Positions 39,924 to 61,636 of a stretch of 64,000 bases of DNA are shown piece by piece. Each line of letters begins with the position of its first letter. The first letter of the stretch is position 1. The notes beneath the pieces were generated by a model. That model ran no database searches, was not told the DNA's origin, and was given only the letters and a program-made list of their open reading frames with translations. The stretch is from Nitrospirota bacterium (GTDB lineage Bacteria; Nitrospirota; Nitrospiria; JACQBZ01): positions 4,447 to 68,446 of the forward strand of contig JACQCA010000012.1 of NCBI GenBank assembly GCA_016201865.1. The letters run 5' to 3'. The translations under genes and the position numbers were made by a program.

Positions 39924-42900
39924 TCACGGACCCGGAATAATCAGCTCATATGTATTCGTATCGCCACTGCCGTTTCCGGCCTGGATGAAATAGCCTTTCC
40001 ACGGCTCTAAGATCGCCTGCGGGGCGCTGTACACATCCGGCAAGGCCGGTGCCAGATAAATATAGTTGGCGCCCTTCAATTCATAAATGGCGCCCGCGTT
40101 TTGGATCCAGTTATTGGGATAGGGATTAGTGTACGCAGCAGTGTAGGTAACACAGCTTGCGTCATTGTTAAATATTCGAACCTTACTGTTCGTTAAATCC
40201 TTCCGTGTGGTGAACGGATTGCCAATCATGTTCCAACCCTTACTCAAGTGAATGGCGAAACTGTTGGCCACACCACAATATGTCCCATAGTTCACATCGC
40301 CCGCCTGCAGCGCACGCGATCCCACCGGCACATCAATCACGGGATTGTACGGTCCGCCGATTAAGAAGTAGCCTTCGCCGGGCTGAATCAGTAACGTTGT
40401 CGTCGTAAGGGGACCGGTGGCCGTGGCATGGGCCCAAATCTCGCTTGAGGTCAGCGCCCGGTTCCAGATCGCGACTTCGTCAACGGTGCCGGCCAAGAAT
40501 TGACTTTGTGTTCCGACCGCATCCCAAGCCGCCCCGATCGTGAGATTTCTGATTGTCGTCAGATTCGCCCCGATCAGGCTTGGGTTGGTCTGATTTATTT
40601 CTAACGCACCGTCAACATACACGAGAAGTTGACCTGTTGTGCTGTTCCATGTCATGGCAATGTGATGCCACTGCCCATCATTGATTACTTTTGTGGAAAG
40701 AGCAGGGACACCGTAATTTGCTCCTGTATTGGTTGTCACACCCGAATAAATGGAAGCGCTGAGTCCATTGTCAACGACAACATTATTTAATGTTGAAGCG
40801 CCGGAGATTTGCCAGCCCGCGGTGGTGCCTGCGTTTCCTGTGCCCCGTTTTTGGACAAGCCGCCATTGAGTCCCCTGGGTCGTTTTGATCCAGCCTTCAA
40901 CCGTAAAGCTCTGGGCGTTAAAATTCAAGACATTGCCCATATCCACATATTGCGTCGCCCCGTTCAAGGAAAGGGCACTGGTGAATTTACCCGCACCGTA
41001 TGAAGGACCGCCAACTAATGTGCCGTTATTTGCATACCCGCTCGAATCCGGCGTCGGACTTCCACCATCCAAATGCCACACGCCCACGGCATCCGATGAC
41101 AGGCCGTAGCCGGTATAAGTGGCATTATAGTTTATAAAGGAGCCGTTATCGGCGTTGAAGCCGGTTGAATTCCACCGGAAGAGCTGCGGCGCCCCGCTAA
41201 TGTCATCCTCGAAGATGACCATCGGATTCGGGCTGGCCGGCTTGAGCGGCACTGAGATAAGGTTGAAGTTCGTCCGAAGCGCCGTGCGGCCGGCCTTGCT
41301 GCCGTCGGTCGTGTTGTCGCCGCAGGAGGTCGTCGTCCCGGCGCAGTATGCGACGTTGGACATCAGCGACTGTCCCGTCGGAAATCCTCGCTCATCCGCG
41401 GCCTTGAGCGCAAAGTAGTAAATCGTATTTGTTGCCAGACCGGTCACCGTAAACGTTTCGGGAGACCCGGCTAATTGGGGCGCGGGTTCACCTGTGGCCT
41501 GCACCACGCAATCTACCGGCTTGGTGGAATCGGCGCAGGCAAGGTTGCTCCAGTCCACCTGATTGGCGCCGGGAGTTCCATCCACAATCGGCAGCATGGA
41601 GTACCGCACGTCGTAACTGGCGGCCGAGCCCACACCGGGCGCATCGAAATCATCTGGCGGCGCGGTCCAAGTCAGCGTAATGGAATCTTTGCGCTGTTCT
41701 CCCTGCTTGATGGTAAGATCCGTAACCGCTGCAGGAGCCTTCGTATCCGAACTTCCGGAGGTGGGGTTCGGAGCCTGAGCCTGGTTCGAGTAGGCCGAAT
41801 TGATATCCTGCGAGCCGTCTGAAGCCGCCCACACAGGACGAACAAAAGCTCTCACTTGATAGCAATATTTCTTCCCGGGTGTAAGCCCCGTGTCGGGATA
41901 ATAGACAAGGCCGCCGGTCGACGCCGACTGAACGGTGTCGCTCAAGACTTCTTTGATCTGGGTGAAGCCCGTGGTCGTACCCGGACAGACCCCGGTCCCG
42001 GTTATATCCAACCGCTCCACTTTAAACCCGGTTTCCGGATCCGGCGGACTGTTGGCGGAGCCGGAGTTGTCCACCCAGGTCAGATTAAGCTGCGTCTGAC
42101 TTAACGTCGCATCGGGCGGATTCGTGACCGTCAGGTTCGGCGCCCTGATCTGGGAAGCGGTGGGCGCAATGGCCGCAACGGCCTTGACCGAGTCGGGATT
42201 CGCAGCCATCGCAGCGTTTACTACGAGACCGCTGGTGGCTGCGGCATGGGCCTGAATTTCAGTCAGGGTCAGCGCCCGGTTCCAGATCACAACTTCGTCA
42301 ATGGAGCCGAGGAATGGGGACATGAAACCCGTGACCCCGGACACCCCGATCTTCAGGCTCCCCGTGGTGGCCACGCGAGGTTCTCCAACAATGGCTTGCG
42401 TCGTGCCATTCCGTGCCTCATTCACATAGAAGGTCACATTCCCGCCGCTCACTACCGCGGCGACATACTGCCAGATGCCTGGCGTCAATGAAGCGCCGTT
42501 GGAGATCGTATCCTGTGATGTTGCGCTCTTTCGATGGCTGAAATTGAGCAGGCCCGCCGAGGTAATACTTAATCGATATTCCGCATCGAAATTACCGCTC
42601 GGTTGCGCCTTGGATAAAATCCACCGCGTCGCGGCAAAATTAGTCGGATTCACCCATGCTTCAAGCGTGAGATCGCCGGTCAGTTGCAGGGGGGCCGCGT
42701 TCGGCACCTCCACATAATCATCCACGCCGTCGAAGGAGAGCGCGTTGACGAATCCTGATTTACCGGTGGTCCATGTAGGCATGGTAGAGACTCTGGTAAA
42801 GCTCAATTCATCCACCCAGCCATTGCCTGCAGGAGTGCCATCCGCAAAGCATCGGACATTAACGCTTGTCGTCCCCACCGGAATGAGTACAGTCTCAGTT

Positions 42901-45900
42901 GCAAACGTCCAATCGGCGTTGACATCCAGCCGTATGCCAGAAGAATCGATCCCTGTGCCCTGCACATCGCATTGCAAAAACTTATTCGTGCTGGTCAGTG
43001 AATTTCTCAACCAACCGCGCAGCACATATTGAGCATTGGCCGTCACGGCGACTGCCTGTTGTCTACCGAATGCCGCAGAGGTGCCGTTAAAGACAAGTTT
43101 CATGCTCTGCAAGCCGCCGTGTTGCACGGTGGCGTCCACATTTGACGAAGTGCCGGTGCCGATGACAACAGTCCAACTCGTCGGAGCCCCGGAAGTGGGA
43201 GTTTCAAAGCTGGGGTTTAATAAGAGGTTGGTTGCCGAAAGATACCCCGTATTGTTGTTGGTCGTTCCATCAGAAGTTGTCACGCCACTGCCCTCATCAA
43301 AATGCCACAGGCTTGCAGCAACACCCGATGTACAGGCCGAGGTGGTCGGGACGATGTTCACAATGATCTGCTCAGTCACAGCCCCAGAGAGCGGTGGTGT
43401 CGCCTTCAAGGTATACATCGCCGAAGCCCCCGGCAATATACTTCCTGTCGGATAGGATCCGTTGGATGTCTCGGTTGTGCCGTCGGTTACAGAGACGGTC
43501 CAGTTCGTGGGAGTGATCCAACTTAACGTGAATGTCGTCGCCGTAATCTGCTCGTTCTGGACCGATAACGCATAAGAAGACGTCGCGCCGGGCGTCACGG
43601 TCAGCGTCTGCGAGCCTCCGAGCCCGCTCCCCGTAGCGTCGTACACATTATCGCCGTTGCCGCCGATGATTCCATCCGCGCGGCAGGGAGCCGTGAAATC
43701 AGCATCCGCCGGAGTGGTTGGCGGACTGCCGTCGCTGTTGCTTCCGAACGAGACCCAGCCGCTGATTCCATCCGAACGTGCCGTGTCATCCAGCGCCCGC
43801 GCGCGCCAGTGATAACTTCCGCCCAAGGTCAGCCCGTTGACCGCTATGGCTTTGACGCCCGGCGCACCGTAAGTTGTCGAAGAAGGATTATAATGCGTCG
43901 CCGTTCCCGTAAAGGACGCCCCGACCGGCTGGACCTCGATTTCCAATCGAATATTGTTGGTCGGAAGCGTGTTCGTATCCGATACGGCCGCCTCAAGGCA
44001 GATGCCGGATGTGCTGATGACCCCTCCTACGGCCACCCCGGCTTCATTGCCGTCGCACGACCCATCATAGAACCGTTGTAGGAGGGAGATAACCGGCGTC
44101 GCATTCACCACCATAAAGTCCGTGTTCCCCGATGTCCCGAACTCGGTCCAGCCGGTGAACCCTCCCGCGCTGTCCACCGCGCGGTACTTCCAATGATAAC
44201 TCGTCCCATAGGACAACGACCCCACTTCGACCTTTGCAACCGTCCCGGACTTGACCGCAAGGCTGCTTGCGGTGACGTTACCGATAAAGGTCGAGCTCAT
44301 CGGCACGACCTCCACCTGCAACTGGAGCTCCTGAGGCGGGAGGGTATTGACATCCACCAGCGTCGCATTCATGCAGATGGTTTGCTGTAAGATGGCGCCC
44401 GCCGCGGCGGCGCCCACCTGCTCAACCACCGTCGCTTCATTCGCATCACACGAACCGTCATACACCCGCTGCCGGACCGTCGCGGCATTAATCGTGGGCG
44501 TTGCATTCGTCACGGTGAAATCGGTATTGTTCACCGTCCCGAACTCGGTCCAGTCGCTGGCCCCGCCCGCGCTGTCCACCGCGCGGTACTTCCAATGATA
44601 ACTCGTCCCATAAGAAAGACTGCCCGTATCAAAAGCGCGGGTATAGTGGTCGGTGATTTGGTCCGGGTTCAGGGGAATGTTGAAGATGGCCACTTCGTCC
44701 ATGCGGCCGTCGAATGGCCAACCCGGCAAGTCCGGACGGTATCCGATATCAACCGTATCGACTGTATCCCCAACACCTCCCGTAAAGGTCCCGGTCGCAT
44801 CGAGGATTGCATTCAGATACAAATTGATATTGGTTCCGTCATACGTCATGGCCACATGATACCAGTTACCGGGAACCAGAGGAGTGCCTCCTGTGACCTC
44901 AGCGCTCAACCCAAATGCTACCCCGCCATCTCCTATATAACCAGCTAACAGTCCATCCGGTCGGACCGCGAGTACATAGTTTAACTCTTTGGCAACAATG
45001 GTCTGAGGATCTGGGGTTGGGGTCAAGGAATTGAGATTGACCCATGCTTCCACACTCATATTGGTCATCCCATCCAGGGTCGGACTATCCGGCACCACCA
45101 CGTGATCGAGCGTCGCGGCAGCGAAACTGCCCGCGGCCGCGCCCAGTCGGGATGCGATCGTAAAGGTTGCGCCATTGACGGCCGTTCCGTTGTTGACGGG
45201 GATATTGAGCGAGCTGTCCAACCAGTCATTATTCATATGCCACAAGGCCATAAGATTCGAGTTCAACACGCCGGGGCCCAAATCACCGGGGGCCAACCCC
45301 CTCCCCGGTGTCCCGGAAGGCCCTGAAACACGGGCTATCCCCCCGTCGATCACGAGCCCGCTCGTTGACGATGCCGTTCCGGTAAAGGTCTGGCTCACCG
45401 GCTTGACTTCCACCTCCAGCGTGATCGTCTGGGACGGCAGCGTGCTTGTGTCCCGCAGAGAAGCTTCAAAGCAGATATTCTGCTGAAAAATGCTGGTATT
45501 TTCGGGCACGACCGCGCCGCTTCCGTTGCAAGGAGAGGGAATGCTATTATACACCCGTTGGTTTGCCGTTCCGGCCTGAATCGTCGGCAGCGCATTCACC
45601 ACTTTGAAATCGGTGTTCCCCGACGTCCCGAATTCGGTCCAGACGCTGGCGGCATTCAACTGATCCACCGCGCGGTATCGCCAGTGATAGCTCGTCCCAT
45701 AGGACAGCGACCCCACCTCTATCGTTGCCACACCTCCGTCGCTGACCGGGCCGCTCGTCGCCACGGCCCCCCCAAAGGTCGAGGTAACCGGCTGCACCTC
45801 CACCTGCAGCGTGATCGTATCGCCCACATTGACATCCGACAGCGTCGCGTTCAAGCAGATGCTCAATTCCCCGATGGTGCCCGCCGGGGTGGCGCCCGCC

Positions 45901-48233
45901 TGTTCAGCCACCGTGCTCCCGGCCAACGTCGGACAACTTCCAAGGTCCTTCCGTTGCTGCACCGTGGCGGGATTGATCGTTGGGGCCGCATTCCCCACGC
46001 TAAAGCTCGCGCCGCTCACATCCGTCCCAAATGAGGTCCAGGCGCTGTATCCATCCGCGTCACGCAAGGTGGAGTCCTTCGCGCGATACTGCCAGTGATA
46101 ACTGCCGTCGGCAAGCCCGCTCACACGGACCCGTCCAATGATTCCGTCCGTCACGGCGGTGCCGCGGCTTACGGTCGTCGCATTGCAGGCCCCTGTCCCC
46201 GTGCAGCTAAAGGTCGACGTCGTCGGCTGCACTTCGACCTCTAACGTGATCGTCTGGCTCGGAAGCGTGTTCGCATCCGACAGCGTCGCATTAAAACAGA
46301 TATTCCCCACACTGACGACGCCTCCGACGATAACCGTTGTCTCGCCCGGAACAGTACTCCCATTGCAGACCCCGTCGTCATCCACCCGTTGCTGCGCCAG
46401 AGTCGCCGTGGGCGTCTTATTCACGACATTAAAATCCGGATCATTCGGATCGAAATTCGTCGCAAACGAGGTCCAGCCGCTCTCGAGACCGGTCGGATCC
46501 ACCGCCCGCGCCTGCCAGTGATAACTCGTGCCGTAGGCCAAAGGCGCACCGCCGCGAAGATAGTGATCGGCGATCTGCGGCGCCGTGAGGGGAGCGCTAA
46601 AGATGGCGACCTCGTCAATGAAGCCGTTGAAAAAATCGCTGCATGTCGTGCTGGCGACACCACTGCATGCCGCTCCGATTTGGTTGTCTCTTGTAGAATT
46701 GTTGATGGTCCTTGCTGCGGAGTTCCTTAGCGTCCCGTCCACATAAATATAACCGTTTGTCCCATCCCATACACCTGCGATGTGATGCCATGCCCCGTCA
46801 GAAACAGACACGCCCGAATCTAATGTGCTCCCGCCAATTACGACCGCGGCATTACTCCATGTAAAAGGGCGTCCTGATTGTAGATAAAGTTGATATCCAC
46901 TCCCGCCGTCATAGGTTGAGAATACCACCTGAGTCGTTGCACTGGTTGTTTTGACCCACGCCTCTACTGTTTTAGTGGTGCCGGTATTTATGGCTGACGC
47001 ATTACCTACTATTACAAAATTACTGCCGCCGTTAAACGAAAGGGCTCGGTTAAATCTGCCCGCGGTGGTCCAGGCCGTGCCGCCGGTCAACGTCCCTGTA
47101 TCCGCCGGCACGTTTCCACTGTCGGCCGCCGTCAACCCCGTCCCTTCATCGAAATGCCATAGGGCCAGAAGGCTCGAATCCGCTACACCCGGCCCTAAGT
47201 TGCCGGGAATGGACAATGGATTTATAGGTCCTACTTGTATTACAGTACCTACCCCCACGCTTCCACTGTTGAGCGGGTCAATCGCCACCGTCGCAGTATT
47301 GGAAAACGCCGTCCCCACCGGCTGCACTTCAACCTCCACGCGAACGGTCGCACTATCAAGATCATCTGCCTTCGTCTCCAAGCAGATGGTCTGCTGAAGA
47401 ATATCGCCGCCCACTCTCACCGTCGTCTCGTCGCCGTTGCAGGCAACTCCATCCCAGACCCGCTGCTGCAATGCGCTGATGGTCGGCGGGAACTTTGTCG
47501 GGATAAAGTCCGTGTCGAACGGATCGAAATTCGTCCCGAAGGAGGTCCAGGCGCTGGCTGCTCCGATGCTATCCAGGCCGCGTGCCTGCCAGTGATACGC
47601 CGTGTTAAAGGTGAGGGCGCTGAACGTGATCCGCGCCACCGTCCCGCTGTTCACGGCGCCGCTCGTCACCACCTGCGGCGATGCCGCGCAGGTTCCCGTC
47701 CCCGTACAGCCGAAGGTCGTCGCCGTCGGCTGCACCTCCACCTGCAACTGGATCGTCTGGGGCGGATTCGTATTGGTATCGTTTACGGTCGCCTCAAGGC
47801 AGATCGTCGTTTGATCAATATTGCCGCCCACCCCCACCGTCGTCTCGATGCCGTCGCATGAGCCGTCGTAAATCCGTTGCTGAAGACCCGTGACCGACGG
47901 CGCCGCATTCACCACCGTAAAGTCCGTGTTCAGCGCCGTCAAATATTCCGTCCAACCGGTCTGCCCATCCGTCCGAGCCGTCGAGTCCAACGCACGGTAC
48001 TGCCAATGATAGCTCGTCCCGTACGACAACGACCCCGCCCGCACCCGCGCGATCTGCCCGGTGTTCACGGTGCCGCTCGTCACCACCTTCGCCGACGCCG
48101 TGCAGGTCCCCGTCGCCGGACAGCCGCAACTCCCCGATCGTCCCCGTGATCTCGGCCACCACGTTCCCGGCCGTCGTCGGACAACTTCCCAGGTCCTCCC
48201 GCTGCTCGACGAACGCCAGCGTCGGCGTCGCAT
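39924..48233 (-). CDS. giant repetitive surface/adhesin-like protein, distal 2769-aa portion (FN3-like repeats, LamG domains, 2 FN3, C-terminal domain)
   Basis: About 8 repeats carrying the ...LSYGTSYHW(Q/K/R)(Y/A)RA(V/L)D...W(T/V)(E/S)FG signature (FN3-like F-G strand pattern). LamG (Laminin_G_3-type) modules: LALWHFDEGTG...VEAWVKTT...IDEVAIFSAPLTAPQIADHY, MALWHMNNDW...VEAWVNLN...MDEVAIFNIPLNPDQITDHY, LSFDGVDDYVEV...LEAWVNPTN...IDEVVIWNRALTLTEIQAH, VGVWHLDGG...VEGWIKTT...VDEVAIWNRALTSSEIWAH. FN3: LTVTNPP...KKYCYQVRAFV and TDLTIKQGEQ...TIYYFALKAADERG. The first 35 residues (MRRRRWRSSSSGRTW...) are an out-of-frame read of a duplicated repeat segment, so this is not a real N-terminus. Confidence 0.7.
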   Translation of the reverse strand: MRRRRWRSSSSGRTWEVVRRRPGTWWPRSRGRSGSCGCPATGTCTASAKVVTSGTVNTGQIARVRAGSLSYGTSYHWQYRALDSTARTDGQTGWTEYLTALNTDFTVVNAAPSVTGLQQRIYDGSCDGIETTVGVGGNIDQTTICLEATVNDTNTNPPQTIQLQVEVQPTATTFGCTGTGTCAASPQVVTSGAVNSGTVARITFSALTFNTAYHWQARGLDSIGAASAWTSFGTNFDPFDTDFIPTKFPPTISALQQRVWDGVACNGDETTVRVGGDILQQTICLETKADDLDSATVRVEVEVQPVGTAFSNTATVAIDPLNSGSVGVGTVIQVGPINPLSIPGNLGPGVADSSLLALWHFDEGTGLTAADSGNVPADTGTLTGGTAWTTAGRFNRALSFNGGSNFVIVGNASAINTGTTKTVEAWVKTTSATTQVVFSTYDGGSGYQLYLQSGRPFTWSNAAVVIGGSTLDSGVSVSDGAWHHIAGVWDGTNGYIYVDGTLRNSAARTINNSTRDNQIGAACSGVASTTCSDFFNGFIDEVAIFSAPLTAPQIADHYLRGGAPLAYGTSYHWQARAVDPTGLESGWTSFATNFDPNDPDFNVVNKTPTATLAQQRVDDDGVCNGSTVPGETTVIVGGVVSVGNICFNATLSDANTLPSQTITLEVEVQPTTSTFSCTGTGACNATTVSRGTAVTDGIIGRVRVSGLADGSYHWQYRAKDSTLRDADGYSAWTSFGTDVSGASFSVGNAAPTINPATVQQRKDLGSCPTLAGSTVAEQAGATPAGTIGELSICLNATLSDVNVGDTITLQVEVQPVTSTFGGAVATSGPVSDGGVATIEVGSLSYGTSYHWRYRAVDQLNAASVWTEFGTSGNTDFKVVNALPTIQAGTANQRVYNSIPSPCNGSGAVVPENTSIFQQNICFEASLRDTSTLPSQTITLEVEVKPVSQTFTGTASSTSGLVIDGGIARVSGPSGTPGRGLAPGDLGPGVLNSNLMALWHMNNDWLDSSLNIPVNNGTAVNGATFTIASRLGAAAGSFAAATLDHVVVPDSPTLDGMTNMSVEAWVNLNSLTPTPDPQTIVAKELNYVLAVRPDGLLAGYIGDGGVAFGLSAEVTGGTPLVPGNWYHVAMTYDGTNINLYLNAILDATGTFTGGVGDTVDTVDIGYRPDLPGWPFDGRMDEVAIFNIPLNPDQITDHYTRAFDTGSLSYGTSYHWKYRAVDSAGGASDWTEFGTVNNTDFTVTNATPTINAATVRQRVYDGSCDANEATVVEQVGAAAAGAILQQTICMNATLVDVNTLPPQELQLQVEVVPMSSTFIGNVTASSLAVKSGTVAKVEVGSLSYGTSYHWKYRAVDSAGGFTGWTEFGTSGNTDFMVVNATPVISLLQRFYDGSCDGNEAGVAVGGVISTSGICLEAAVSDTNTLPTNNIRLEIEVQPVGASFTGTATHYNPSSTTYGAPGVKAIAVNGLTLGGSYHWRARALDDTARSDGISGWVSFGSNSDGSPPTTPADADFTAPCRADGIIGGNGDNVYDATGSGLGGSQTLTVTPGATSSYALSVQNEQITATTFTLSWITPTNWTVSVTDGTTETSNGSYPTGSILPGASAMYTLKATPPLSGAVTEQIIVNIVPTTSACTSGVAASLWHFDEGSGVTTSDGTTNNNTGYLSATNLLLNPSFETPTSGAPTSWTVVIGTGTSSNVDATVQHGGLQSMKLVFNGTSAAFGRQQAVAVTANAQYVLRGWLRNSLTSTNKFLQCDVQGTGIDSSGIRLDVNADWTFATETVLIPVGTTSVNVRCFADGTPAGNGWVDELSFTRVSTMPTWTTGKSGFVNALSFDGVDDYVEVPNAAPLQLTGDLTLEAWVNPTNFAATRWILSKAQPSGNFDAEYRLSITSAGLLNFSHRKSATSQDTISNGASLTPGIWQYVAAVVSGGNVTFYVNEARNGTTQAIVGEPRVATTGSLKIGVSGVTGFMSPFLGSIDEVVIWNRALTLTEIQAHAAATSGLVVNAAMAANPDSVKAVAAIAPTASQIRAPNLTVTNPPDATLSQTQLNLTWVDNSGSANSPPDPETGFKVERLDITGTGVCPGTTTGFTQIKEVLSDTVQSASTGGLVYYPDTGLTPGKKYCYQVRAFVRPVWAASDGSQDINSAYSNQAQAPNPTSGSSDTKAPAAVTDLTIKQGEQRKDSITLTWTAPPDDFDAPGVGSAASYDVRYSMLPIVDGTPGANQVDWSNLACADSTKPVDCVVQATGEPAPQLAGSPETFTVTGLATNTIYYFALKAADERGFPTGQSLMSNVAYCAGTTTSCGDNTTDGSKAGRTALRTNFNLISVPLKPASPNPMVIFEDDISGAPQLFRWNSTGFNADNGSFINYNATYTGYGLSSDAVGVWHLDGGSPTPDSSGYANNGTLVGGPSYGAGKFTSALSLNGATQYVDMGNVLNFNAQSFTVEGWIKTTQGTQWRLVQKRGTGNAGTTAGWQISGASTLNNVVVDNGLSASIYSGVTTNTGANYGVPALSTKVINDGQWHHIAMTWNSTTGQLLVYVDGALEINQTNPSLIGANLTTIRNLTIGAAWDAVGTQSQFLAGTVDEVAIWNRALTSSEIWAHATATGPLTTTTLLIQPGEGYFLIGGPYNPVIDVPVGSRALQAGDVNYGTYCGVANSFAIHLSKGWNMIGNPFTTRKDLTNSKVRIFNNDASCVTYTAAYTNPYPNNWIQNAGAIYELKGANYIYLAPALPDVYSAPQAILEPWKGYFIQAGNGSGDTNTYELIIPGP

Positions 48234-48664
48234 TCACCACCGTAAAGTCCGTGTTCCCGGACGTTAAATACTCCGTCCAGCCGCTGGCTATTGCTTGGTC
48301 ATCCAACGCACGGTACTGCCAATGATAGCTCGTCCCGTACGACAACGACCCCGCCCGCACCCGCGCGATCTGCCCGGTGTTCACGGTGCCGCTCGTCACC
48401 ACCTTCGCCGACGCCGTGCAGGTCCCCGTCGCCGGACAGCCGCGCCGTGCAGGTCCCCGTCGCCGGACAGCCGAAGGTCGTCGCCGTCGGCTGCACCTCC
48501 ACCTGCAACTGGATTGTCTCGGCCACATGGACATCCGACAGCGTCGCATTAAAGCAGATGCTCAACTCCCCGATCGTCCCCGTGATCTCGGCCACCACGT
48601 TCCCGGCCGTCGTCGGACAACTTCCCAGGTCCTCCCGCTGCTCGACGAACGCCAGCGTCGGCGG
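47987..48664. repeat. perfect local tandem duplication inside the giant gene: 141-bp unit X (about 47987-48127 and 48303-48443) and 101-bp unit Y (about 48128-48228 and 48564-48664), plus a ~31-bp direct duplication (about 48413-48443 / 48444-48474)
   Basis: The identical peptide GCPATGTCTASAKVVTSGTVNTGQIARVRAGSLSYGTSYHWQYRALD is encoded twice (N-terminus of the 2769-aa ORF and inside the 244-aa ORF 47815..48549). TLAFVEQREDLGSCPTTAGNVVAEITGTIGEL is also encoded twice (244-aa ORF and the C-terminus of the 1519-aa ORF). Copy 1 joins X directly to Y, lacking the ~89-bp segment Z (about 48475-48563) present in copy 2. Copy 2 carries the extra ~31-bp duplicate. Both changes shift the frame; the 1519-aa ORF ends in the out-of-frame reading RLSGDGDLHGVGEGGDERHREHRADRAGAGGVVVVRDELSLAVPCVG. 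Unit boundaries +/-2 nt. Confidence 0.7.
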
Positions 48665-51600
48665 CGTATTCGTCACCTTAAAATCCGAATTCGCCTCGGG
48701 ATTCCCCCCAAAGGACGTCCAGGCGCTGACCACGTTGTTGTTGTCCACGCCGCGGTACTGCCAATGATAGTTGGTGCCGTACGTGCGCCCGGAAACAGCC
48801 ACCGTAATAACGACACCCTGGGTCGTAAAACCGGAACAATCCGGCGAACAGAACTGTGCGGTATTGCTGAAGGTCGTCAAGACCGGTTGCACCTCCACTT
48901 CCAGCCGGACAGAGTTTCCTTCGACATCGGCCACATTGGCCTCAAGACAGATGGAGGTCTCGTTAATCTCGCCCCCCACCGGCACCGTCGTTTCGCTGCC
49001 CAAACAGACTGAGTCGGCAAACACATCCACACGCTGCTGCACCGTCGAGGCGTTGATCGTCGGCGGGAAATTATTCATTCTAAAATCGGTATTGTTCGCC
49101 GCTCCAAACTCGGTCCAGACGGTGGCCGCTCCACGGTCGTCCACCCCACGGTACTTCCAGTGATAACTGGTCCCGGAGACCAGCCCGCCCACCGAAATAA
49201 TTTTAGTCCCGCCGGAGGCAAAGGAACCGAGAGGCGGTTCGGAATGCGTGGCTGTTCCAGAAAAAGTGCTGGTGGTCGGCTCCACCTCGACCTCGAGACG
49301 AACCGGATTTAGGTCCGGATCGGTTATATTCCCCTGAAGGCATATGGTGGTTGTAAGAACGTCAGTCCCCTCCGGAATGACGATCCCGCTCCCAACGGCA
49401 CAAGTTCCGTTGAAGAGGTTCCGCTGCAGCGGCGGCGACGTTGTCGTGTCGATGATCGGCGGGTGATTCGTCACGGTAAAATCGGTATTGTTCGCCGTCC
49501 CGAACTCGGTCCAGGCGCTGATTCCATCGGCACGCGTCGTATCATCCACCGCGCGATACTGCCAGTGATAGCTCGTACCGGACTGGAGCGGACCCACCGT
49601 CACCCGCGCCACAGGGGCAGACTCGGTCACGGCCGTGCTTGTCCAGTTCTGAGTACCCGAGAAGGTCGACGTGGTCGGCTGGACTTCCACCTGCAACGTG
49701 ATCGTCTGATTGCTCGTCAAACCGGATAGCGGCAACTTGTTATTGGGATCCGAAAGCGTCGCATTAAGACAGATGCTTGTCTGGTCAATTGCGCGGCCTT
49801 CCACCACGGTGACTTCCCCGGCCCCCAATCCGTCGCACGCTCCGTCATATACCCGCTGCTCGACGGCCGATGCCGTCGGCGGCAAGTTCACCACTTTGAA
49901 ATCCGTGTTCCCCGCCGTTCCAAACTCGGTCCAGCCGGTGGCCGCGTTCAGGTTATCCACCCCACGCGCCTGCCAGTGATAAGAACTGCCATAGGAACGT
50001 CCGCTGATCGTCACAATTTTTTGGCCCTGTGCCGATGTGCCGGCACAGGTGGAAGCGTCGTCGCAGAAAATATTTGTGGTGCCGTCAAAGGTAGACCCTG
50101 TCGGCTTCACCTCCACCTCAAGACGGATGGTCTGTACGGGATCGATATCGGTCACATTCACATCAAGGCAGATCGTCGTGGTTCCAACGCTGCCTTGCTC
50201 CGACACCGTGGTCTCATTGCCTTTGCAGCGTAAGCTGTTATCGAAAATCCGCTGCAGCATTGTGATCATCGTAGGAGGCAGGTTGACCGCGCTGAAATCA
50301 ATCCCAGACGGCTCGGGATTCGCCCCAAACAAGATCCAGCCGCTGGGCGCTCCCTGTTCATCCACCGCACGTGCCTGCCAGTGATATTTTGTGCCGTAAG
50401 AAACAGTAACCGGCAAATACTTGCCGGTCTGCAAGTCAAAGGAACCGGTCGTAGTAGCGGCATTGCCAAAGGTCGTCCCGATCGGCTGCACCTCCAACTC
50501 AAGACGGGTTTGCTGGGTTGAATCCGTATCGTTCACAGTCGCTTCAAGGCAGATGGTCTGCGCATTAATGCTGCCCCCCACAACCACCGTGCTCTCATTG
50601 CCTTTGCAGCGCAAGCTGTTATCGAAAATCCGCTGGTTCAGGCTGCCGGCGATGATTGTAGGCGGCACATTGACCGGTATAAAATCGACGTTCGAGGGAT
50701 AAACTGCGCCGTCATTATTCCCAAAGTCGCTCCAGCCGCTGTCTGCTCCAAAGCTGTCCACCCCACGCGCCTGCCAGTGATATTCCGTGCCGTAGGAAAG
50801 CCCTCTGATCGTCACAATTTTTTGGCCCCCTGTCGATGTGCCGGTACAGGTGGAAATGTCGTCGCAGAAAATATCGGTGACAGTGTCAAAGGGCTTGACC
50901 AACGGCTTTACTTCCACCTCCAACCGGACGGCATTACCGTCAGGATCGGTGACATCTGCGTCAAGGCAGATAACCCGCGTGTTAATGCTGCCCCCCACAA
51001 CCACCGTGGTCTCATTGCCTTTGCAGCGCAAGCTGGTATCGAAAATCCGCTGCAGCATGGCGCTGATCGCGGGCCGGGTATTACCCACGGTGAAATCGGA
51101 CGCCGCAGAAACGGTCGGAGGATTGCCGTCGCTGTTGTTCCCAAAGGAGAACCAAGATGTGGTCGTCCCCCCGGGGAAATCCACCACACGCGCGCGCCAG
51201 TGATAGCTTTTACCGTTGGCAAGCCCGGTCACCGTCACAATTTTTTGGCCCTGTGCCGATGTGCCGGCACAGGTGGAAAGGTCGTCGCAGAAAAGATTGG
51301 TGGCGCCGTCAAAGGACGTTCCCACCTCCTTTACTTCAACTTCGAGACGGACACTTTGGCCGGCGGCATCGGTCACATCCGCCTCAAGGCAGATGGTCTG
51401 TGTTCCAATGCTGCCCCCCACGGCCACCGTGGTCTCATTGCCTTTGCAGCGCAAGCTGGTATCGAAAATCCGCTGCAGCATGGCGCTGATCGTGGGAGAA
51501 GGAGAGCCTATACTAAAATCCGGATCAAACGGATCGGTATTCGTCCCAAACGAGGTCCAGGCGCTGACACCATCGGTGCGCCCCGTATCATCCACCCCAC

Positions 51601-52858
51601 GCGCCCGCCAGTGATAAGCCGTGCCGGAGGAAAGCCCGGTCACCGTCACAATTTTTTGGCCCTGCCCCGATGTGCCGGCACAGGTGGAAAGGTCGTCGCA
51701 GAAAAGATTGGTGGTGCCGTTGAAGGTCACGCCGACCGGCTTCACCTCCACCTCAAGACGGACACCGTTTCCGGCGGCATCCTGCACATCTGCATCAAGG
51801 CAGATGGCCTGTGTATTAATAGTGCTCCCCATGTCCACCGTTGTCTCATTGCCTTTGCAGCGTAAGCTGGTATCGAAAATCCGCTGCGTCATTGCGCCGA
51901 GGGTGGGCGGCGTATTCACCGTCTTGAAATCGGTATTCCCCGCCGTTCCAAACTCGGTCCAGCCGGTGGCCAAACCTACCATATCCACTCCACGCGCGCG
52001 CCAGTGATAAGAACTGCCGTAGGAAAGGCCGGTCACCATGGCAGGGAACGGAGTCTGGACACCCGTGGTGACGCAGTCATTTGAAGGTGAGCAGAAAATA
52101 TTGGTGGTGCCGTTAAAGGTCGCCCCTGCCGGTTTTACTTCGACCTCCAGCCGGACGGTATCGCCGGCAACATCCTCCACAGTCGAATCAACGCAGATGC
52201 TCCGCGTATTAATCGTGCCTTGCTCCGACACCGTGAACTCATTGCCCTTGCAGCGTGCGGTGGCATCGAAAATCCGCTGGTTCATTGCGCCGATGGTGGG
52301 CGGCGTATTCACGGCGGTGAAATCCGGATCCGAGGGCAATGGATTCCGATCGATATTCGTCCCAAACGAGGTCCAGGCACTGGCCGCTCCCGTGAAATCC
52401 ACCCCCCGCGCGCGCCAGTGATAAGAACTGCCGTAGGAAAGGCCGGTCACCGTGGCAACATAAGTAGTGTTCTGGATGCCGGTGGTGATACAATCAGATG
52501 AAGGTGAGCAGAAAATTTTGGTGGTGCCGTCAAAGGTTATGCCGACCGGTTTCACTTCGACCTCAAGCCGGACGGTATCGCCATCGCCGTCGGTAATATT
52601 GGCCTCAAGGCAAACGGTCTGTGTATTAATAGTGCTCCCCATGGCCACCGTTGTCTCATTGCCTTTGCAGCGTCCGGTGGTATCGAAAATCCGCTGCAGC
52701 ACACTGCCCGGGGTGATCGTAGGGGCAACGGCCGAGGAGGCGGTTCCGCTGAAGATGATTGGAAGAAGTTGGAGGGCAAAGAAGGCCGTCACCCCTACTG
52801 CTTTGAGGAGCAGAGGTCCTTTCAGAACAGTTCGCCCTCTGTCGGCTTGCAATCTCAT
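48299..52858 (-). CDS. giant repetitive surface/adhesin-like protein, proximal 1519-aa portion with signal peptide and about 11 FN3-like repeats
   Basis: N-terminus MRLQADRGRTVLKGPLLLKAVGVTAFFALQLLPIIFSGTASSA (signal peptide). Repeats each carry L(R/C)CKGNETTV....I.T..ICL(E/D)A.V.D..G..VRLEVEVKP.G..F.GTT..FC.......G.......V.GLS.G(S/T).YHW(R/Q)ARGVD. The last repeat is truncated by the frameshift. Confidence 0.7.
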   Translation of the reverse strand: MRLQADRGRTVLKGPLLLKAVGVTAFFALQLLPIIFSGTASSAVAPTITPGSVLQRIFDTTGRCKGNETTVAMGSTINTQTVCLEANITDGDGDTVRLEVEVKPVGITFDGTTKIFCSPSSDCITTGIQNTTYVATVTGLSYGSSYHWRARGVDFTGAASAWTSFGTNIDRNPLPSDPDFTAVNTPPTIGAMNQRIFDATARCKGNEFTVSEQGTINTRSICVDSTVEDVAGDTVRLEVEVKPAGATFNGTTNIFCSPSNDCVTTGVQTPFPAMVTGLSYGSSYHWRARGVDMVGLATGWTEFGTAGNTDFKTVNTPPTLGAMTQRIFDTSLRCKGNETTVDMGSTINTQAICLDADVQDAAGNGVRLEVEVKPVGVTFNGTTNLFCDDLSTCAGTSGQGQKIVTVTGLSSGTAYHWRARGVDDTGRTDGVSAWTSFGTNTDPFDPDFSIGSPSPTISAMLQRIFDTSLRCKGNETTVAVGGSIGTQTICLEADVTDAAGQSVRLEVEVKEVGTSFDGATNLFCDDLSTCAGTSAQGQKIVTVTGLANGKSYHWRARVVDFPGGTTTSWFSFGNNSDGNPPTVSAASDFTVGNTRPAISAMLQRIFDTSLRCKGNETTVVVGGSINTRVICLDADVTDPDGNAVRLEVEVKPLVKPFDTVTDIFCDDISTCTGTSTGGQKIVTIRGLSYGTEYHWQARGVDSFGADSGWSDFGNNDGAVYPSNVDFIPVNVPPTIIAGSLNQRIFDNSLRCKGNESTVVVGGSINAQTICLEATVNDTDSTQQTRLELEVQPIGTTFGNAATTTGSFDLQTGKYLPVTVSYGTKYHWQARAVDEQGAPSGWILFGANPEPSGIDFSAVNLPPTMITMLQRIFDNSLRCKGNETTVSEQGSVGTTTICLDVNVTDIDPVQTIRLEVEVKPTGSTFDGTTNIFCDDASTCAGTSAQGQKIVTISGRSYGSSYHWQARGVDNLNAATGWTEFGTAGNTDFKVVNLPPTASAVEQRVYDGACDGLGAGEVTVVEGRAIDQTSICLNATLSDPNNKLPLSGLTSNQTITLQVEVQPTTSTFSGTQNWTSTAVTESAPVARVTVGPLQSGTSYHWQYRAVDDTTRADGISAWTEFGTANNTDFTVTNHPPIIDTTTSPPLQRNLFNGTCAVGSGIVIPEGTDVLTTTICLQGNITDPDLNPVRLEVEVEPTTSTFSGTATHSEPPLGSFASGGTKIISVGGLVSGTSYHWKYRGVDDRGAATVWTEFGAANNTDFRMNNFPPTINASTVQQRVDVFADSVCLGSETTVPVGGEINETSICLEANVADVEGNSVRLEVEVQPVLTTFSNTAQFCSPDCSGFTTQGVVITVAVSGRTYGTNYHWQYRGVDNNNVVSAWTSFGGNPEANSDFKVTNTPPTLAFVEQREDLGSCPTTAGNVVAEITGTIGELSICFNATLSDVHVAETIQLQVEVQPTATTFGCPATGTCTARLSGDGDLHGVGEGGDERHREHRADRAGAGGVVVVRDELSLAVPCVG

Positions 52859-52865
52859 GGCTGTT

Positions 52866-53510
52866 CTATGACACCCTCAACACAAAATGCCGAATCTGCC
52901 CGTCAGCGGCGTAGGTAAGCGGGCCGCTCGCGCAGAGATCCGTTTGGGGCAGTTGTCCTTCTGTGTTCCAGAGCATAAACTGATGGGTGGCGCAGCTTAC
53001 CCCGCCGGCAGGCGGAACCCAGGAAACCGTGACGGTTCTCCCCGATGCCGCAACCACCTCGATCCGCCATTCCGCAGGCAGATTGAGCGATCGGAGATCC
53101 TGCCACAGTTGTTGGCTGTTCGTGTCGTAACCGGCATCGCCGGCATGAGCGAAATAGGCCTGAATCGGCGCATCGGTGTACAAGAGGGCTCGGACATCCC
53201 CTGCGTTGTCAAACCCGTCTGTTGCAGTTTCTCCTACTCCGGCCGACAGACGGTTATACGCCACGCCGCCGTCCGCCCCACTCTCCGGCACCGATATCTG
53301 AAGTGTCAACCGCCAGCCCGCGGGCTTGGAGCCAATTTGAGGCGCCGCTCCCCCATCGGGCGAAGAGGATGAACCCCGATCCTGGCATGCAAACAGCCCA
53401 AGCATCCCGAATACTAAAACGAGCCCATGAATCGCGCGCGTCATTTGGTTTATGCTTGACGGTTTGTGGTTGAGGGCTGCCGTAAGGGTATGCATCACAC
53501 CTCCAAACAT
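52866..53510 (-). CDS. small lipoprotein of unknown function (about 190-214 aa), 8 nt upstream of the giant gene
   Basis: Lipobox-containing signal MTRAIHGLVLVFGMLGLFACQDRG. The likely start is the second ATG (about 53495), preceded by GGAGG. No recognisable domain. Co-directional and nearly abutting the giant gene start. Confidence 0.45.
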   Translation of the reverse strand: MFGGVMHTLTAALNHKPSSINQMTRAIHGLVLVFGMLGLFACQDRGSSSSPDGGAAPQIGSKPAGWRLTLQISVPESGADGGVAYNRLSAGVGETATDGFDNAGDVRALLYTDAPIQAYFAHAGDAGYDTNSQQLWQDLRSLNLPAEWRIEVVAASGRTVTVSWVPPAGGVSCATHQFMLWNTEGQLPQTDLCASGPLTYAADGQIRHFVLRVS

Positions 53511-58952: not shown

Positions 58953-59279
58953 CTTATTCCCTCCTTTTTATTTTTTCCCGTTTCGAGATCCGGCTCTCGA
59001 GTGGCCCGATCTCGGTTGGTTCACAGTTCACAGCTTCATGGTCGCCGTGCCTGTCCTATGATCCGAGGCGCCATGCATTGCGCCTCTTTACTTATGGCGA
59101 TCCATGAATCGCCCGCGACAAACCGGGGTCCAGCCCCTCATCTTGGGCGCAATGAATTGCGCTCCTGCATTTCATAACATTTCCTCCTTTCTTGTATTTT
59201 TGTCTTGTGTTCTTGGTTCATCTTTTCCAATGGCCGCGGAGATAAACTCCGCGCTGTATCGGGCGCAATGAATTGCGCG
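58953..59279 (-). promoter_or_regulatory. 327-bp intergenic spacer carrying three copies of a GC-rich palindromic motif (consensus GCGCAAT-GA-ATTGCGC) and a possible 27-codon small ORF
   Basis: Copies at about 59263-59278 (gcgcaatgaattgcgc, 2 nt after the stop of gene 59280..60437), 59147-59162 (gcgcaatgaattgcgc) and 59065-59086 (gaggcgc-catgcatt-gcgcctc variant). An additional hairpin cgcggag-ataaa-ctccgcg is at about 59237-59255. A minus-strand small ORF, about 59092-59175 (MKCRSAIHCAQDEGLDPGLSRAIHGSP), has RBS AAAGGAGGA and overlaps the middle motif. Confidence 0.4.
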
Positions 59280-61618: not shown

Positions 61619-61636
61619 TTTCGTTTCCTCGCGACT

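What the first reader, a model, noticed from the sequence alone, without database searches (positions are those of the whole stretch)
39924..53510. Giant (~4300 aa if contiguous) FN3-like/LamG repeat surface protein with a distinctive SYGTSYHW..RA.D repeat, preceded by a small lipoprotein and followed by a 12-heme cytochrome
Seen in the sequence: a signal peptide only at the 52858 end. About 20 tandem ~105-135 aa repeats carry the nearly invariant SYGTSYHW(Q/R/K)(A/Y)R(A/G)(V/L)D ... W(T/S)(E/S)FG motif and a conserved CKGNETTV / ICL(E/D)A segment. Four to five LamG (concanavalin-like) modules have the LALWHFDEG...DEVAIF/W N..L signature. There are two clear FN3 domains and a ~120-aa C-terminal domain of unknown type. 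No sortase (LPXTG) or PEP-CTERM tail was seen. Repeat units differ at the protein level, so they diverged rather than collapsed in assembly, except at 48 kb. Inference: an extracellular adhesin or S-layer-like scaffold. Its position in the same apparent transcription string as a 12-heme cytochrome suggests a matrix that positions cytochromes at the cell surface or on a mineral substrate. I do not recognise the repeat signature as a named domain family.
Basis: partly seen in the sequence, partly recalled or inferred. Interest (0 to 1): 0.7.

Follow-up and report, generated by a model that had tools for sequence, protein, structure and literature searches.

The report
Giant FN3-LamG surface protein gene
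A groundwater Nitrospirota bacterium encodes a secreted protein of about 4,330 residues, built from 19 divergent fibronectin-III-like domains and four lectin-like LamG domains; with a small partner protein it forms an optional insert in an electron-transfer (porin-cytochrome) gene cluster, and it is most likely an adhesin-type protein rather than a new kind of system.

Summary
On the minus strand, 39924-52858 is one giant gene. GenBank annotates it as two hypothetical proteins, HY204_01530 and HY204_01525 (Nitrospirae MAG). It is split near 48.1-48.5 kb by a 31-nt tandem duplication and an 89-nt skip. Undoing both gives a single 4,330-aa ORF with 19 "YHW" units.

What defines this protein family is something else: a conserved C-terminal cassette (beta-sandwich, two FN3, and a ~215-aa terminal domain with no Pfam/NCBIfam or PDB sequence match) and a small upstream partner protein.

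In the window this two-gene module sits between an NHL propeller gene and a 12-haem cytochrome gene. The surrounding cluster resembles the Uet porin-cytochrome cluster in gene content. Four other related loci have the giant at the same position. Six related clusters lack it, and one close relative lies beside pyrimidine-biosynthesis genes.

Verdict: a variable, adhesin-like accessory of an extracellular-electron-transfer cluster. The cytochrome-scaffold idea is only partly supported.

The parts
52866..53510 (-). Small exported partner protein (214 aa; lipobox-like LGLFAC). It ends 8 nt before the giant gene starts.
   Evidence: Translation. No Pfam, NCBIfam or PDB match. It is 42% identical (E 3e-30) to the ORF directly upstream of the related giant in L092. 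It is absent from all six giant-less cytochrome clusters.
39924..52858 (-). The giant gene as a whole: 4,330 aa after repair of two lesions. GenBank annotates it as HY204_01530 plus HY204_01525.
52727..52858 (-). N-terminal signal peptide region (aa 1-44).
   Evidence: It holds the only strongly hydrophobic 19-mers of the protein, at residues 11-38. The repeats start at residue 45.
43737..52726 (-). Array of 19 divergent FN3-like 'YHW' units (period 123-154 aa). Two of them carry nested LamG domains.
48412..48473 (-). 31-nt tandem duplication (two copies of cggctgtccggcgacggggacctgcacggcg). This is the first frame break.
48126..48127 (-). Junction that skips 89 nt relative to the neighbouring unit. 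This is the second frame break.
   Evidence: The 142-nt block is 100% identical at 47986-48127 and 48302-48443.
46539..47216 (-). LamG-1, nested inside FN3-like unit B247-604.
   Evidence: Pfam Laminin_G_3. Insertion point after reference residue 90.
44619..45311 (-). LamG-2, nested inside FN3-like unit B880-1242.
43299..43751 (-). Beta-sandwich-like module (weak DUF11 match). It is the first element of the conserved C-terminal cassette.
   Evidence: Pfam DUF11, E 0.014, below cut-off. 47% identical to L092. Present in L082 and L087.
42219..43316 (-). LamG-3, carrying a ~150-aa insert (42759-43241) of unknown family.
   Evidence: Laminin_G_3 best stretch at aa 1835-1994. The insert has no Pfam or PDB match.
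41334..42161 (-). Two canonical FN3 domains.
   Evidence: Pfam fn3, 29 bits and 16 bits. 46% identical to L092. Conserved in L086.
40419..41096 (-). LamG-4, inserted into the C-terminal domain.
   Evidence: Laminin_G_2 and Pentaxin hits at aa 2508-2601. The homologues in L082, L086, L087 and L092 lack this insert.
41079..41297 (-). C-terminal domain, first part (GRTALRTNFNLISVPL...).
   Evidence: Alignment A2.
39927..40436 (-). C-terminal domain, second part (GYFLIGG..NPVIDVP ... GWNMIGNPF ... EPWKGYF ... YELIIPGP, then stop).
   Evidence: 50 cluster representatives at E<=1e-3 among 1.84 billion. Nearly all carry it at their extreme C-terminus. No Pfam, NCBIfam or PDB match.
36529..39843 (-). 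12-haem c-type cytochrome (1104 aa), 80 nt downstream of the giant gene.
   Evidence: 11 CXXCH plus 1 CX3-4CH. Pfam Paired_CXXCH_1. 100% identical to MBI3609365.1.
53607..54716 (-). NHL beta-propeller lipoprotein. It forms the upstream boundary of the insert.
   Evidence: Pfam NHL, E 3.5e-37. In giant-less relatives it lies directly before the cytochrome gene.
54716..56683 (-). 655-aa protein with no family match. It ends in ...RAF and is a putative outer-membrane beta-barrel.
   Evidence: Translation. Conserved at this position in all complete related clusters, 27-57% identical. The barrel is inferred, not tested.
56793..57767 (-). SurA-like peptidyl-prolyl isomerase.
57915..63650 (-). Four small multihaem cytochromes (4, 4, 4 and 5 CXXCH) and a second NHL propeller.

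Best explanation
WHAT IT IS. 39924-52858 encodes one Sec-exported modular protein of about 4,330 aa. In this assembly it is broken by two small lesions inside near-identical repeats.

ANATOMY
- The N-terminal 3,000 aa form a long stalk of 19 divergent, probably disulfide-stapled FN3-fold domains.
- Lectin-like LamG domains are nested in two of these units.
- The C-terminal ~1,300 aa hold a cassette conserved across relatives: a beta-sandwich, two FN3 domains and a ~215-aa terminal domain with no Pfam/NCBIfam or PDB sequence match. In this protein two further LamG domains are interposed in that stretch.

FAMILY AND LOCATION
- The gene and the small exported protein encoded just upstream form a two-gene module.
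- The named members carrying this C-terminal domain are all Nitrospirota.
- In one clade the module is inserted between the NHL-propeller gene and the extracellular-type 12-haem cytochrome gene. The surrounding porin-cytochrome cluster resembles Uet in gene content.

PROPOSED FUNCTION (inferred)
- The conserved C-terminal cassette, possibly with the small partner, handles export or attachment to the cell envelope.
- The variable FN3/LamG stalk projects outwards and binds a glycan or solid surface.
- Placement inside the electron-transfer cluster would co-express attachment with the electron conduit.
- The module is an optional accessory, not a core part of the conduit.

SHOWN: the gene structure, the folds, the family distribution and the synteny pattern. 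INFERRED: surface location, anchoring role, ligand binding and co-expression.
For: ONE GENE. Two edits restore a 4,330-aa ORF.

EXPORT
- The only hydrophobic segment is an N-terminal signal peptide.
- The protein is acidic and rich in Thr, Gly and Ser, with 74 Cys.
- Each repeat has two invariant Cys.

FOLDS
- Pfam finds four Laminin_G_3 stretches.
- The nesting of LamG in the repeats is shown by alignment. It recurs in the L082 homologue.

CONSERVED CASSETTE, VARIABLE STALK
- L092 is 46-47% identical over sandwich-FN3-FN3 and 42% over the C-terminal domain. It has no YHW repeats or Pfam hits in its first ~1,550 aa.
- L086 shares the FN3 pair and C-terminal domain but shows no YHW units in its visible 1,523 aa.
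- The C-terminal domain is at the extreme end of nearly all 50 representatives found.
- The named members are all Nitrospirota.

PARTNER PROTEIN
- It is present upstream of the giant in both loci where the 5' end is visible: the window and L092 (42% identity, E 3e-30).
- It is absent from all six giant-less clusters.

SYNTENY
- The giant lies directly upstream of the orthologous cytochrome in the window, L082/L083, L086, L087 and L089.
- It is three accession numbers from a cytochrome homologue in MAG HZA12.
- The cluster content (small multihaem cytochromes, PPIase, barrel-like protein, two NHL propellers, an 11-12-haem cytochrome) matches the published Uet gene list (bioRxiv 10.1101/2022.05.06.490989; PMC10734462).
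Against: - No experiment or structure places the protein on the cell surface or shows any ligand.
- The route across the outer membrane is unknown. There is no barrel, RTX motif, T9SS tail, LPXTG or PEP-CTERM.
- The fold of the C-terminal domain could not be obtained (pLDDT 33).
- The gene may be inactive in this genome, given the two frame breaks.
- The module is missing from six of eleven related cytochrome clusters.
- It occurs away from cytochromes in L092, so any functional tie to electron transfer is at most facultative.
- Promoter-like matches lie in both flanking intergenic regions, but their number is no higher than chance. Co-transcription with the cytochrome gene is therefore unproven.
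Confidence: 0.5

Rival explanations
1. Dedicated cytochrome scaffold. The giant protein would be a functional subunit of the electron conduit. It would bind and position the 12-haem cytochrome, or cytochrome polymers, at the cell surface or on a mineral.
For: - The giant has the same position, directly upstream of the orthologous cytochrome, in five independent loci.
- The two genes are near neighbours in a more distant MAG.
- The named members of the C-terminal domain family are all Nitrospirota, the phylum that carries this cytochrome cluster.
Against: - Six related clusters, including four with cytochromes 62-68% identical to the window's, keep every other gene but lack the giant and its partner.
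- L092 carries the module beside pyrR/pyrB/pyrC/carA with no multihaem ORF within 8-10 kb.
- The giant has no haem-binding motif.
- The stalk domains vary freely between homologues. That suits a variable binding or spacer function better than a fixed protein-protein scaffold.
Confidence: 0.15
2. Generic adhesin or matrix protein whose location is incidental. The two-gene module would be mobile or variable cargo that landed in an intergenic gap of a long one-strand operon. It would have no functional relation to electron transfer.
For: - The YHW FN3-like domain occurs in surface proteins of Gemmatimonadota, Patescibacteria and Planctomycetota. Multihaem ORFs are nearby in only 2 of 79 loci.
- Distant relatives of the C-terminal domain occur in 68 metagenome loci with no multihaem ORF.
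- L092 lies in a housekeeping neighbourhood.
- The module is present or absent among close relatives.
Against: - The identical insertion point recurs in lineages whose cytochromes are only 63-72% identical.
- In an unbootstrapped NJ tree the four giant-less loci form one clade. This fits one ancestral placement followed by a single loss better than repeated random landings.
- A second, more distant lineage also keeps the two genes close together.
Confidence: 0.25
3. Decaying pseudogene. The two frame breaks would be real, and the gene would be inactive in this organism. This reading concerns the gene's state. It is compatible with any of the functional readings for intact homologues.
For: - The deposited sequence carries a +31-nt and a -89-nt lesion that do not compensate each other.
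- Neither junction shows long microhomology of the kind expected from a simple k-mer mis-join.
Against: - Apart from the two lesions, 13 kb reads through without a single stop.
- Both lesions abut a 142-nt perfect repeat. Other contigs of this groundwater project are named k141, and repeats of that size are what short-read assemblers scramble.
- In every other locus the contig ends inside the giant gene. This shows the region is hard to assemble.
Confidence: 0.25

Closest known systems
FN3-like N-terminal domains of purple acid phosphatase, PhoD and alpha-L-rhamnosidase Rha78A (Pfam PF16656, PF16655, PF25788), and classical FN3 (PF00041)
   Same: - The summed weak matches of the 19 units lift whole-protein scores above the Pfam cut-offs (57.7 and 51.3 bits).
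- The Y-x-W-R-x-R-x-x-D ... W motif lies on the F-G hairpin, as it does in those families (the family comparison is from memory, not tested here).
   Different: - A single unit reaches no Pfam cut-off (0 hits, or 16 bits against 30).
- The units are longer (about 131-141 aa).
- They carry two invariant Cys and an extra Cys-rich loop.
- They are not attached to any enzyme domain.
Laminin_G_3 / concanavalin-A-like lectin domains (Pfam PF13385) in bacterial surface proteins, including the TafC fimbrial protein (NF052521)
   Same: Four clear Laminin_G_3 stretches (E 9.5e-96). There is a partial match to TafC (122 bits).
   Different: - The TafC score is far below its cut-off (122 against 410).
- Here the LamG domains are nested: two inside FN3-like units, one inside the C-terminal domain, and one hosts its own insert.
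Giant repetitive bacterial adhesins (RTX adhesins such as LapA and MpIBP; SiiE; invasin/intimin with Big_1 repeats). Comparison from general knowledge.
   Same: The size is several thousand residues. There is a long array of Ig/FN3-fold spacer domains. Lectin-like modules are interspersed. The anchoring end appears conserved while the stalk varies.
   Different: - It has a Sec-type N-terminal signal peptide.
- It has no RTX nonapeptides, no T1SS genes nearby, no beta-barrel, and no Big_1 or Invasin domains.
- Its C-terminal cassette and its partner protein are not those of any of these families.
Uet (undecahaem electron transfer) cluster of Ca. Tenderia electrophaga and Gallionella, and the porin-dodecahaem PCC clusters of Ca. 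Manganitrophus. This comparison concerns the neighbourhood, not the giant protein itself.
   Same: The gene content matches: small multihaem cytochromes, a peptidyl-prolyl isomerase next to a putative beta-barrel, two NHL propellers, and a large 11-12-haem cytochrome following an NHL gene (papers).
   Different: - No FN3/LamG giant is listed in the published Uet cluster.
- No cupredoxin (UetF) was seen here.
- The small cytochromes have 4-5 haem motifs rather than 3.
- Three FGE-sulfatase genes and a long array of PD40 propeller genes follow the cytochrome.
- Sequence homology to Tenderia or Manganitrophus proteins was not tested.

Membership tests
Fibronectin type III fold (E-set beta-sandwich) | Seven-stranded beta-sandwich of about 90-130 aa that superposes on solved FN3 domains. 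| tested here: met
   [not shown]
Pfam fn3 / Pur_ac_phosph_N / Ig_Rha78A_N (sequence families) | A single domain copy scores above the family's gathering threshold. | tested here: not met
   Unit 1 gave no family at E<=1. Unit 14 scored 16.4 bits against a cut-off of 30. Only the sum over 19 copies passes.
Laminin_G_3 (PF13385) | HMM match above the gathering threshold. | tested here: met
   318 bits against a cut-off of 27.6, in four stretches.
RTX / T1SS adhesins | No Sec signal peptide; C-terminal GGxGxD nonapeptide repeats; T1SS genes adjacent. | tested here: not met
   The N-terminus has a hydrophobic signal peptide. There are zero GGxGxD motifs. No HemolysinCabind hit appeared. None of the neighbouring genes scanned matched a transporter family.
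T9SS cargo | C-terminal Por_Secre_tail (TIGR04183) or type B C-terminal domain. | tested here: not met
   NCBIfam gave no such hit. The tail is ...TYELIIPGP. Distant relatives of the C-terminal domain do carry T9SS-type tails further downstream, but this protein does not.
Sortase, PEP-CTERM and other CTERM-sorted proteins | A sorting motif followed by a C-terminal membrane helix and a basic tail. | tested here: not met
   No LPXTG and no hydrophobic C-terminal segment. No NCBIfam CTERM model matched.
Autotransporter / inverse autotransporter (intimin, invasin) | A membrane beta-barrel domain within the same polypeptide. | tested here: not met
   No barrel family was found in Pfam or NCBIfam. 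The repeats begin at residue 45.
S-layer protein | An SLH or other known S-layer anchoring or lattice domain. | tested here: not met
   No such Pfam or NCBIfam hit. Lattice formation itself cannot be tested with these tools.
Uet-type porin-cytochrome cluster (neighbourhood) | An extracellular cytochrome with about 11 haems. | tested here: met
   11 CXXCH plus 1 CX3-4CH in the 1104-aa protein, with a Paired_CXXCH_1 match. Extracellular location is not testable here.
Uet-type porin-cytochrome cluster (neighbourhood) | PPIase (UetB), NHL propellers (UetH/I) and small periplasmic multihaem cytochromes in the same cluster. | tested here: met
   A SurA-like rotamase, two NHL proteins, and four cytochromes with 4-5 CXXCH motifs.
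Uet-type porin-cytochrome cluster (neighbourhood) | An outer-membrane beta-barrel (UetC). | tested here: inconclusive
   The 655-aa protein next to the PPIase gene has no family match. It ends in ...RAF and is conserved in all related clusters. No structure was predicted.
Uet-type porin-cytochrome cluster (neighbourhood) | Sequence homology to the Tenderia UetA-J proteins. | not tested
Nitrospirota giant-protein family proposed here | C-terminal cassette: sandwich, FN3, FN3, CGD..TDG..GRTALR, then a terminal domain ending EPWKGYW...ELI.P. | tested here: met
   Alignments A2 and A3. 42-49% identity to L082, L086, L087 and L092. 17 representatives at E<=1e-10.
Nitrospirota giant-protein family proposed here | A small exported partner protein encoded immediately upstream. 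| tested here: inconclusive
   It is present in both loci where the 5' end is visible, the window and L092. All the other loci are cut by contig ends.

The most novel reading that the evidence does not exclude
The small partner protein and the giant protein would form a previously undescribed, Nitrospirota-specific surface-attachment system. The conserved C-terminal cassette would be a new export or anchoring module. It would dock, perhaps through the partner or the NHL propellers, onto the Uet-like porin-cytochrome conduit. The variable FN3/LamG stalk would tether the cell, or the 12-haem cytochrome, to solid Mn/Fe phases or other solid electron donors or acceptors. Attachment and extracellular electron transfer would then be physically coupled.
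Probability: 0.15. Interest if true: 0.7.

Novelty: new variant of a known kind. Interest (0 to 1): 0.4.

Why it matters
Giant FN3/Ig-repeat proteins are common in uncultured bacteria and are almost never characterised. By itself, this one is an ordinary example with an unusually long and regular FN3-like array.

Three things make it worth recording:
- The "unnamed" repeat turns out to be an FN3 fold. It belongs to a widespread sequence family that Pfam does not capture per copy.
- The protein belongs to a small family that, among its named members, is confined to Nitrospirota. The family is defined by a conserved C-terminal cassette and a partner protein, neither of which matched Pfam, NCBIfam or PDB sequences. 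This may point to an unknown way of exporting or anchoring very large proteins in diderm bacteria.
- The module recurs at one exact position inside a conserved, Uet-like extracellular-electron-transfer cluster of groundwater Nitrospirota. Relatives of this phylum are proposed Mn(II) or Fe(II) lithotrophs (PMC9040806).

If the module couples attachment to solid substrates with electron uptake, it would give a handle on how these uncultured organisms engage minerals. If not, it remains a useful marker of a variable site in that cluster.

Tried and rejected
SEARCHES THAT FOUND NOTHING USEFUL
- An exact look-up of the cytochrome translation found nothing. The homology search later gave the 100% GenBank match.
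- A word-indexed homology search with the last 175 aa found nothing.
- The first metagenome scan, using a 3-sequence C-terminal alignment, found nothing. A second scan with an 18-sequence alignment found 68 mostly distant loci.
- The PDB sequence searches found nothing meaningful: the C-terminal profile search had a best E of 0.17, the LamG-3 insert a best E of 0.35, and the small partner no match.
- Pfam and NCBIfam gave nothing for the small partner, the 655-aa barrel-like protein, the LamG-3 insert or the C-terminal domain.

STRUCTURE PREDICTION
- Single-sequence AlphaFold of the C-terminal domain with the LamG removed failed (pLDDT 33). It was not used.

READINGS REJECTED
- RTX adhesin, T9SS cargo, sortase or PEP-CTERM substrate, autotransporter and S-layer protein. 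See the membership table.
- My reading of the LamG-3 insert as a CBM4/9-like module rests on memory of motifs only. No tool supports it.

WEAK OR UNCHECKED
- The promoter and terminator scan was no better than chance.
- The Manganitrophaceae paper does not mention these MAGs. Assignment of the window to that family was not established.

Full report
1. WHAT IS IN THE SEQUENCE

All genes in the region lie on the minus strand. ORF A is 48299-52858 (1519 aa). ORF B is 39924-48233 (2769 aa). A third ORF, 47815-48549, bridges them in another frame and also carries repeat sequence.

Reading the DNA shows two lesions:
- A 31-nt tandem duplication at 48473-48443 / 48442-48412.
- A junction at 48127|48126 that skips 89 nt present in the neighbouring unit.

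Both lesions abut a 142-nt block that is 100% identical at 47986-48127 and 48302-48443. Deleting one 31-nt copy and restoring the 89 nt gives a single ORF of 4,330 aa with 19 YHW units.

GenBank holds the same sequence as two hypothetical proteins, HY204_01530 and HY204_01525. The cytochrome is HY204_01520. All lie on a 79,922-bp contig of a 'Nitrospirae bacterium' MAG.

I cannot tell whether the lesions are assembly artefacts or real. Three points favour an artefact:
- 13 kb of otherwise stop-free reading frame.
- A perfect repeat of about k+1 length for a k141 assembly. Other contigs of the project carry 'k141' in their names.
- In all four other loci the contig ends inside the homologous gene.

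2. ANATOMY OF THE PROTEIN

Overall properties:
- The only strongly hydrophobic stretch is at residues ~14-38, a Sec-type signal peptide.
- There is no LPXTG, no RTX motif and no C-terminal hydrophobic tail.
- The protein is acidic (pI 4.5), rich in Thr, Gly, Ala, Val and Ser, and has 74 Cys.

The repeat array:
- Residues 45 to about 3,000 are 19 units of 123-154 aa.
- Fifteen units align with 36-64% identity to the first.
- Invariant positions include two Cys, L..EV, F, YHW, R, D and W..FG.

LamG domains:
- Two units are 358 and 363 aa long because a LamG domain is inserted after reference residue 90, just before the strand that carries SYGTSYHW.
- The same nested arrangement is seen in the homologue in L082.
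- Pfam finds four Laminin_G_3 stretches in all.
- The third LamG hosts a ~150-aa insert with no family match.
- The fourth sits inside the C-terminal domain. Alignment with homologues that lack the insert shows this.

Between the repeat array and the C-terminus lie a beta-sandwich-like module (a sub-threshold DUF11 match) and two FN3 domains.

3. WHAT THE REPEAT IS

At sequence level, the whole protein scores above the cut-offs of Pur_ac_phosph_N, Ig_Rha78A_N and PhoD_N. That is only through summation. Single units reach no cut-off.

The family is widespread. The motif YHW[QRK][AY]R[GA][VL]D, confirmed by tblastn, marks 79 loci in species-representative genomes. Most are Gemmatimonadales. Others are Patescibacteria, Planctomycetota, Methylomirabilis, Rokubacteria, Ignavibacteria and Myxococcota. 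Identity is 29-45%.

In those genomes the strict motif occurs once or twice per protein. Two of three proteins scanned carry it alongside Big_1/Invasin or Big_13 modules. Only 2 of the 79 loci have an ORF with three or more CXXCH motifs within 10 kb. The 19-fold tandem amplification is what is unusual in the window.

4. WHAT DEFINES THE PROTEIN FAMILY

The last 175 aa find only 50 cluster representatives at E<=1e-3 among 1.84 billion proteins, and 17 at E<=1e-10. In nearly all of them the match is at the extreme C-terminus, with a conserved tail...Y.YNG..Y...LEPWKGYW...YELI.P.P. The named members are all Nitrospirota.

Full-length relatives show an FN3 just before the domain. In some, a LamG sits next to it. 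Evidence from individual homologues:
- L092 encodes a 2,291-aa protein. It is 46-47% identical over the sandwich-FN3-FN3 stretch and 42% over the terminal domain. It has no YHW units, and no Pfam hits at all in its first ~1,550 aa.
- L086 shares the FN3 pair and terminal domain. Its visible 1,523 aa contain no YHW units.

The C-terminal cassette is thus the conserved part, and the stalk is variable.

The small protein encoded 8 nt upstream (52866-53510) is 42% identical (E 3e-30) to the ORF directly upstream of the L092 giant. It is absent from every giant-less cluster. The unit is therefore a two-gene module.

A profile of the C-terminal domain finds nothing in the PDB by sequence. Single-sequence structure prediction failed.

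More distant relatives of the domain (25-35% identity; motifs GWNxIGNPF and EPWKGYW) occur in 68 metagenome loci. In many of them another ~260-330 aa follow, some ending in a T9SS-type tail (by eye). None has a multihaem ORF within 10 kb.

5. NEIGHBOURHOOD AND THE CYTOCHROME QUESTION

Reading along the minus strand, the window holds:
- a 5-haem cytochrome, an NHL propeller, and three 4-haem cytochromes;
- a SurA-like PPIase;
- a 655-aa protein with no family match that ends in ...RAF, a putative outer-membrane barrel (inferred);
- a second NHL propeller;
- the small partner and the giant;
- a 1104-aa cytochrome with 11 CXXCH plus 1 CX3-4CH;
- three FGE-sulfatase-like genes;
- then a long array of PD40 and BNR propeller lipoproteins.

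In gene content this matches the Uet cluster described for Ca. Tenderia electrophaga. That cluster has a tetrahaem UetA, PPIase UetB, barrel UetC, trihaem UetD/E/G, NHL proteins UetH/I and undecahaem UetJ (bioRxiv 10.1101/2022.05.06.490989; PMC10734462). It also recalls the porin-dodecahaem PCC complexes proposed for Mn(II) oxidation in Ca. Manganitrophus, a Nitrospirota (PMC9040806). I did not test sequence homology to those proteins.

The cytochrome has more than 1,000 homologues at E<=1e-10; those that carry an organism name are Nitrospirota. I read the contexts of ten of them.
- Giant present: a homologous giant gene lies directly upstream of the cytochrome in L082/L083, L086, L087 and L089. 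The contig start cuts it in every case.
- Giant absent: in L081, L084, L085 and L088 the NHL gene is followed directly by the cytochrome gene. The same holds in two outgroups, L090 and L091, whose cytochromes are 47% and 42% identical to the window's.

In an unbootstrapped NJ tree of the cytochromes, the four giant-less close relatives form one clade nested among giant-bearing lineages. That fits one acquisition and one loss, but the tree is only suggestive.

In a more distant Nitrospirae MAG (HZA12), a 2,010-aa family member (MBI5756480.1) and a cytochrome homologue (MBI5756483.1) are three accession numbers apart on one 34,649-bp contig.

Against an obligate link, the L092 module sits beside pyrR, pyrB, pyrC and carA-type genes, with no multihaem ORF within the 8-10 kb held on either side.

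6. MOST LIKELY FUNCTION

Shown:
- An exported 452-kDa protein made of FN3-fold spacers and lectin-like LamG modules.
- A conserved C-terminal cassette and a conserved small partner.
- Recurrent but facultative placement between the NHL gene and the 12-haem cytochrome gene of a conserved cluster.

Inferred:
- The cassette, perhaps with the partner, mediates export or attachment to the envelope.
- The variable stalk projects from the cell and binds glycans or solid surfaces, as in other giant bacterial adhesins.
- Being embedded in the electron-transfer cluster co-expresses attachment with the conduit.

I put this at about 0.5. The alternatives are:
- A dedicated cytochrome scaffold (about 0.15). 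The six giant-less clusters and L092 weaken it.
- A purely incidental location (about 0.25). The repeated identical position weakens it.
- Independently of function, about a 0.25 chance that the gene is a pseudogene in this genome.

7. NOVELTY AND SCORE

Giant FN3/LamG surface proteins are a known kind, and the repeat is a known fold. New here are the unannotated C-terminal cassette with its partner protein, the domain-in-domain LamG architecture, and the recurrent insertion into a Uet-like cluster. I rate it a new variant of a known kind, with interest 0.4.

Noticed in passing
window 13080-34006 (minus strand): At least 14 consecutive genes encode ~350-aa (some 615-739-aa) exported or lipoprotein beta-propellers of PD40/TolB-like and BNR/Ycf48-like type. 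The same array follows the three FGE-sulfatase genes in orthologous loci L081, L082, L086 and L087. Nearly every long ORF of the 64-kb window lies on one strand.
   Followed up: partly
window 34003-36503 (minus strand): Three tandem FGE-sulfatase (formylglycine-generating-enzyme-like) genes lie immediately downstream of the 12-haem cytochrome. They are conserved in all eleven related clusters, including the outgroups. Their role next to a cytochrome is unexplained.
   Followed up: partly
window 54716-56683 (minus strand): A 655-aa protein with no Pfam or NCBIfam match ends in ...RAF and is conserved (27-57% identity) next to the PPIase gene in all complete related clusters. It is probably the outer-membrane barrel of the conduit, but no structure was predicted.
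   Followed up: partly
L092:2770-10462 (JGI Ga0335085_10004096): An intact 2,291-aa member of the giant family sits with the partner protein directly upstream. Here the partner lacks a lipobox and carries an extra FN3-like tail. The pair lies beside pyrimidine-biosynthesis genes and a molybdopterin oxidoreductase gene, with no cytochromes nearby.
   Followed up: yes
L093-L159 (68 metagenome loci): Distant relatives of the C-terminal domain (motifs GWNxIGNPF and EPWKGYW) are widespread. In about 40 loci the domain is internal and followed by ~260-330 aa, some ending in what looks (by eye) like a T9SS-type tail or in a recurrent '...QAILPMVVTR' ending. The domain seems to be a more general, unnamed module of large secreted proteins.
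   Followed up: partly
L090:22629-22994 onwards (GCA_036397255.1, Nitrospiria): In an outgroup cluster that lacks the giant at the usual position, a 3,225-aa fn3/Pur_ac_phosph_N protein gene starts about 10 kb downstream of the cytochrome gene. I did not check whether it carries the C-terminal cassette.
   Followed up: no
L031:2573-15905 (Planctomycetota NC_groundwater_668): A 2,862-aa Big_13/Ig_Rha78A_N protein with the YHW motif lies 3 kb from an ORF with 13 CXXCH motifs. This is one of only two cytochrome-adjacent cases among the 79 loci.
   Followed up: no
window 53566-53593 and 39886-39915 (minus strand): Sigma-70-like promoter matches lie in the intergenic regions upstream of the small partner gene (10 of 12 positions, with a TG extension) and upstream of the cytochrome gene (9 of 12). 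The number of matches in the region is no higher than chance.
   Followed up: no
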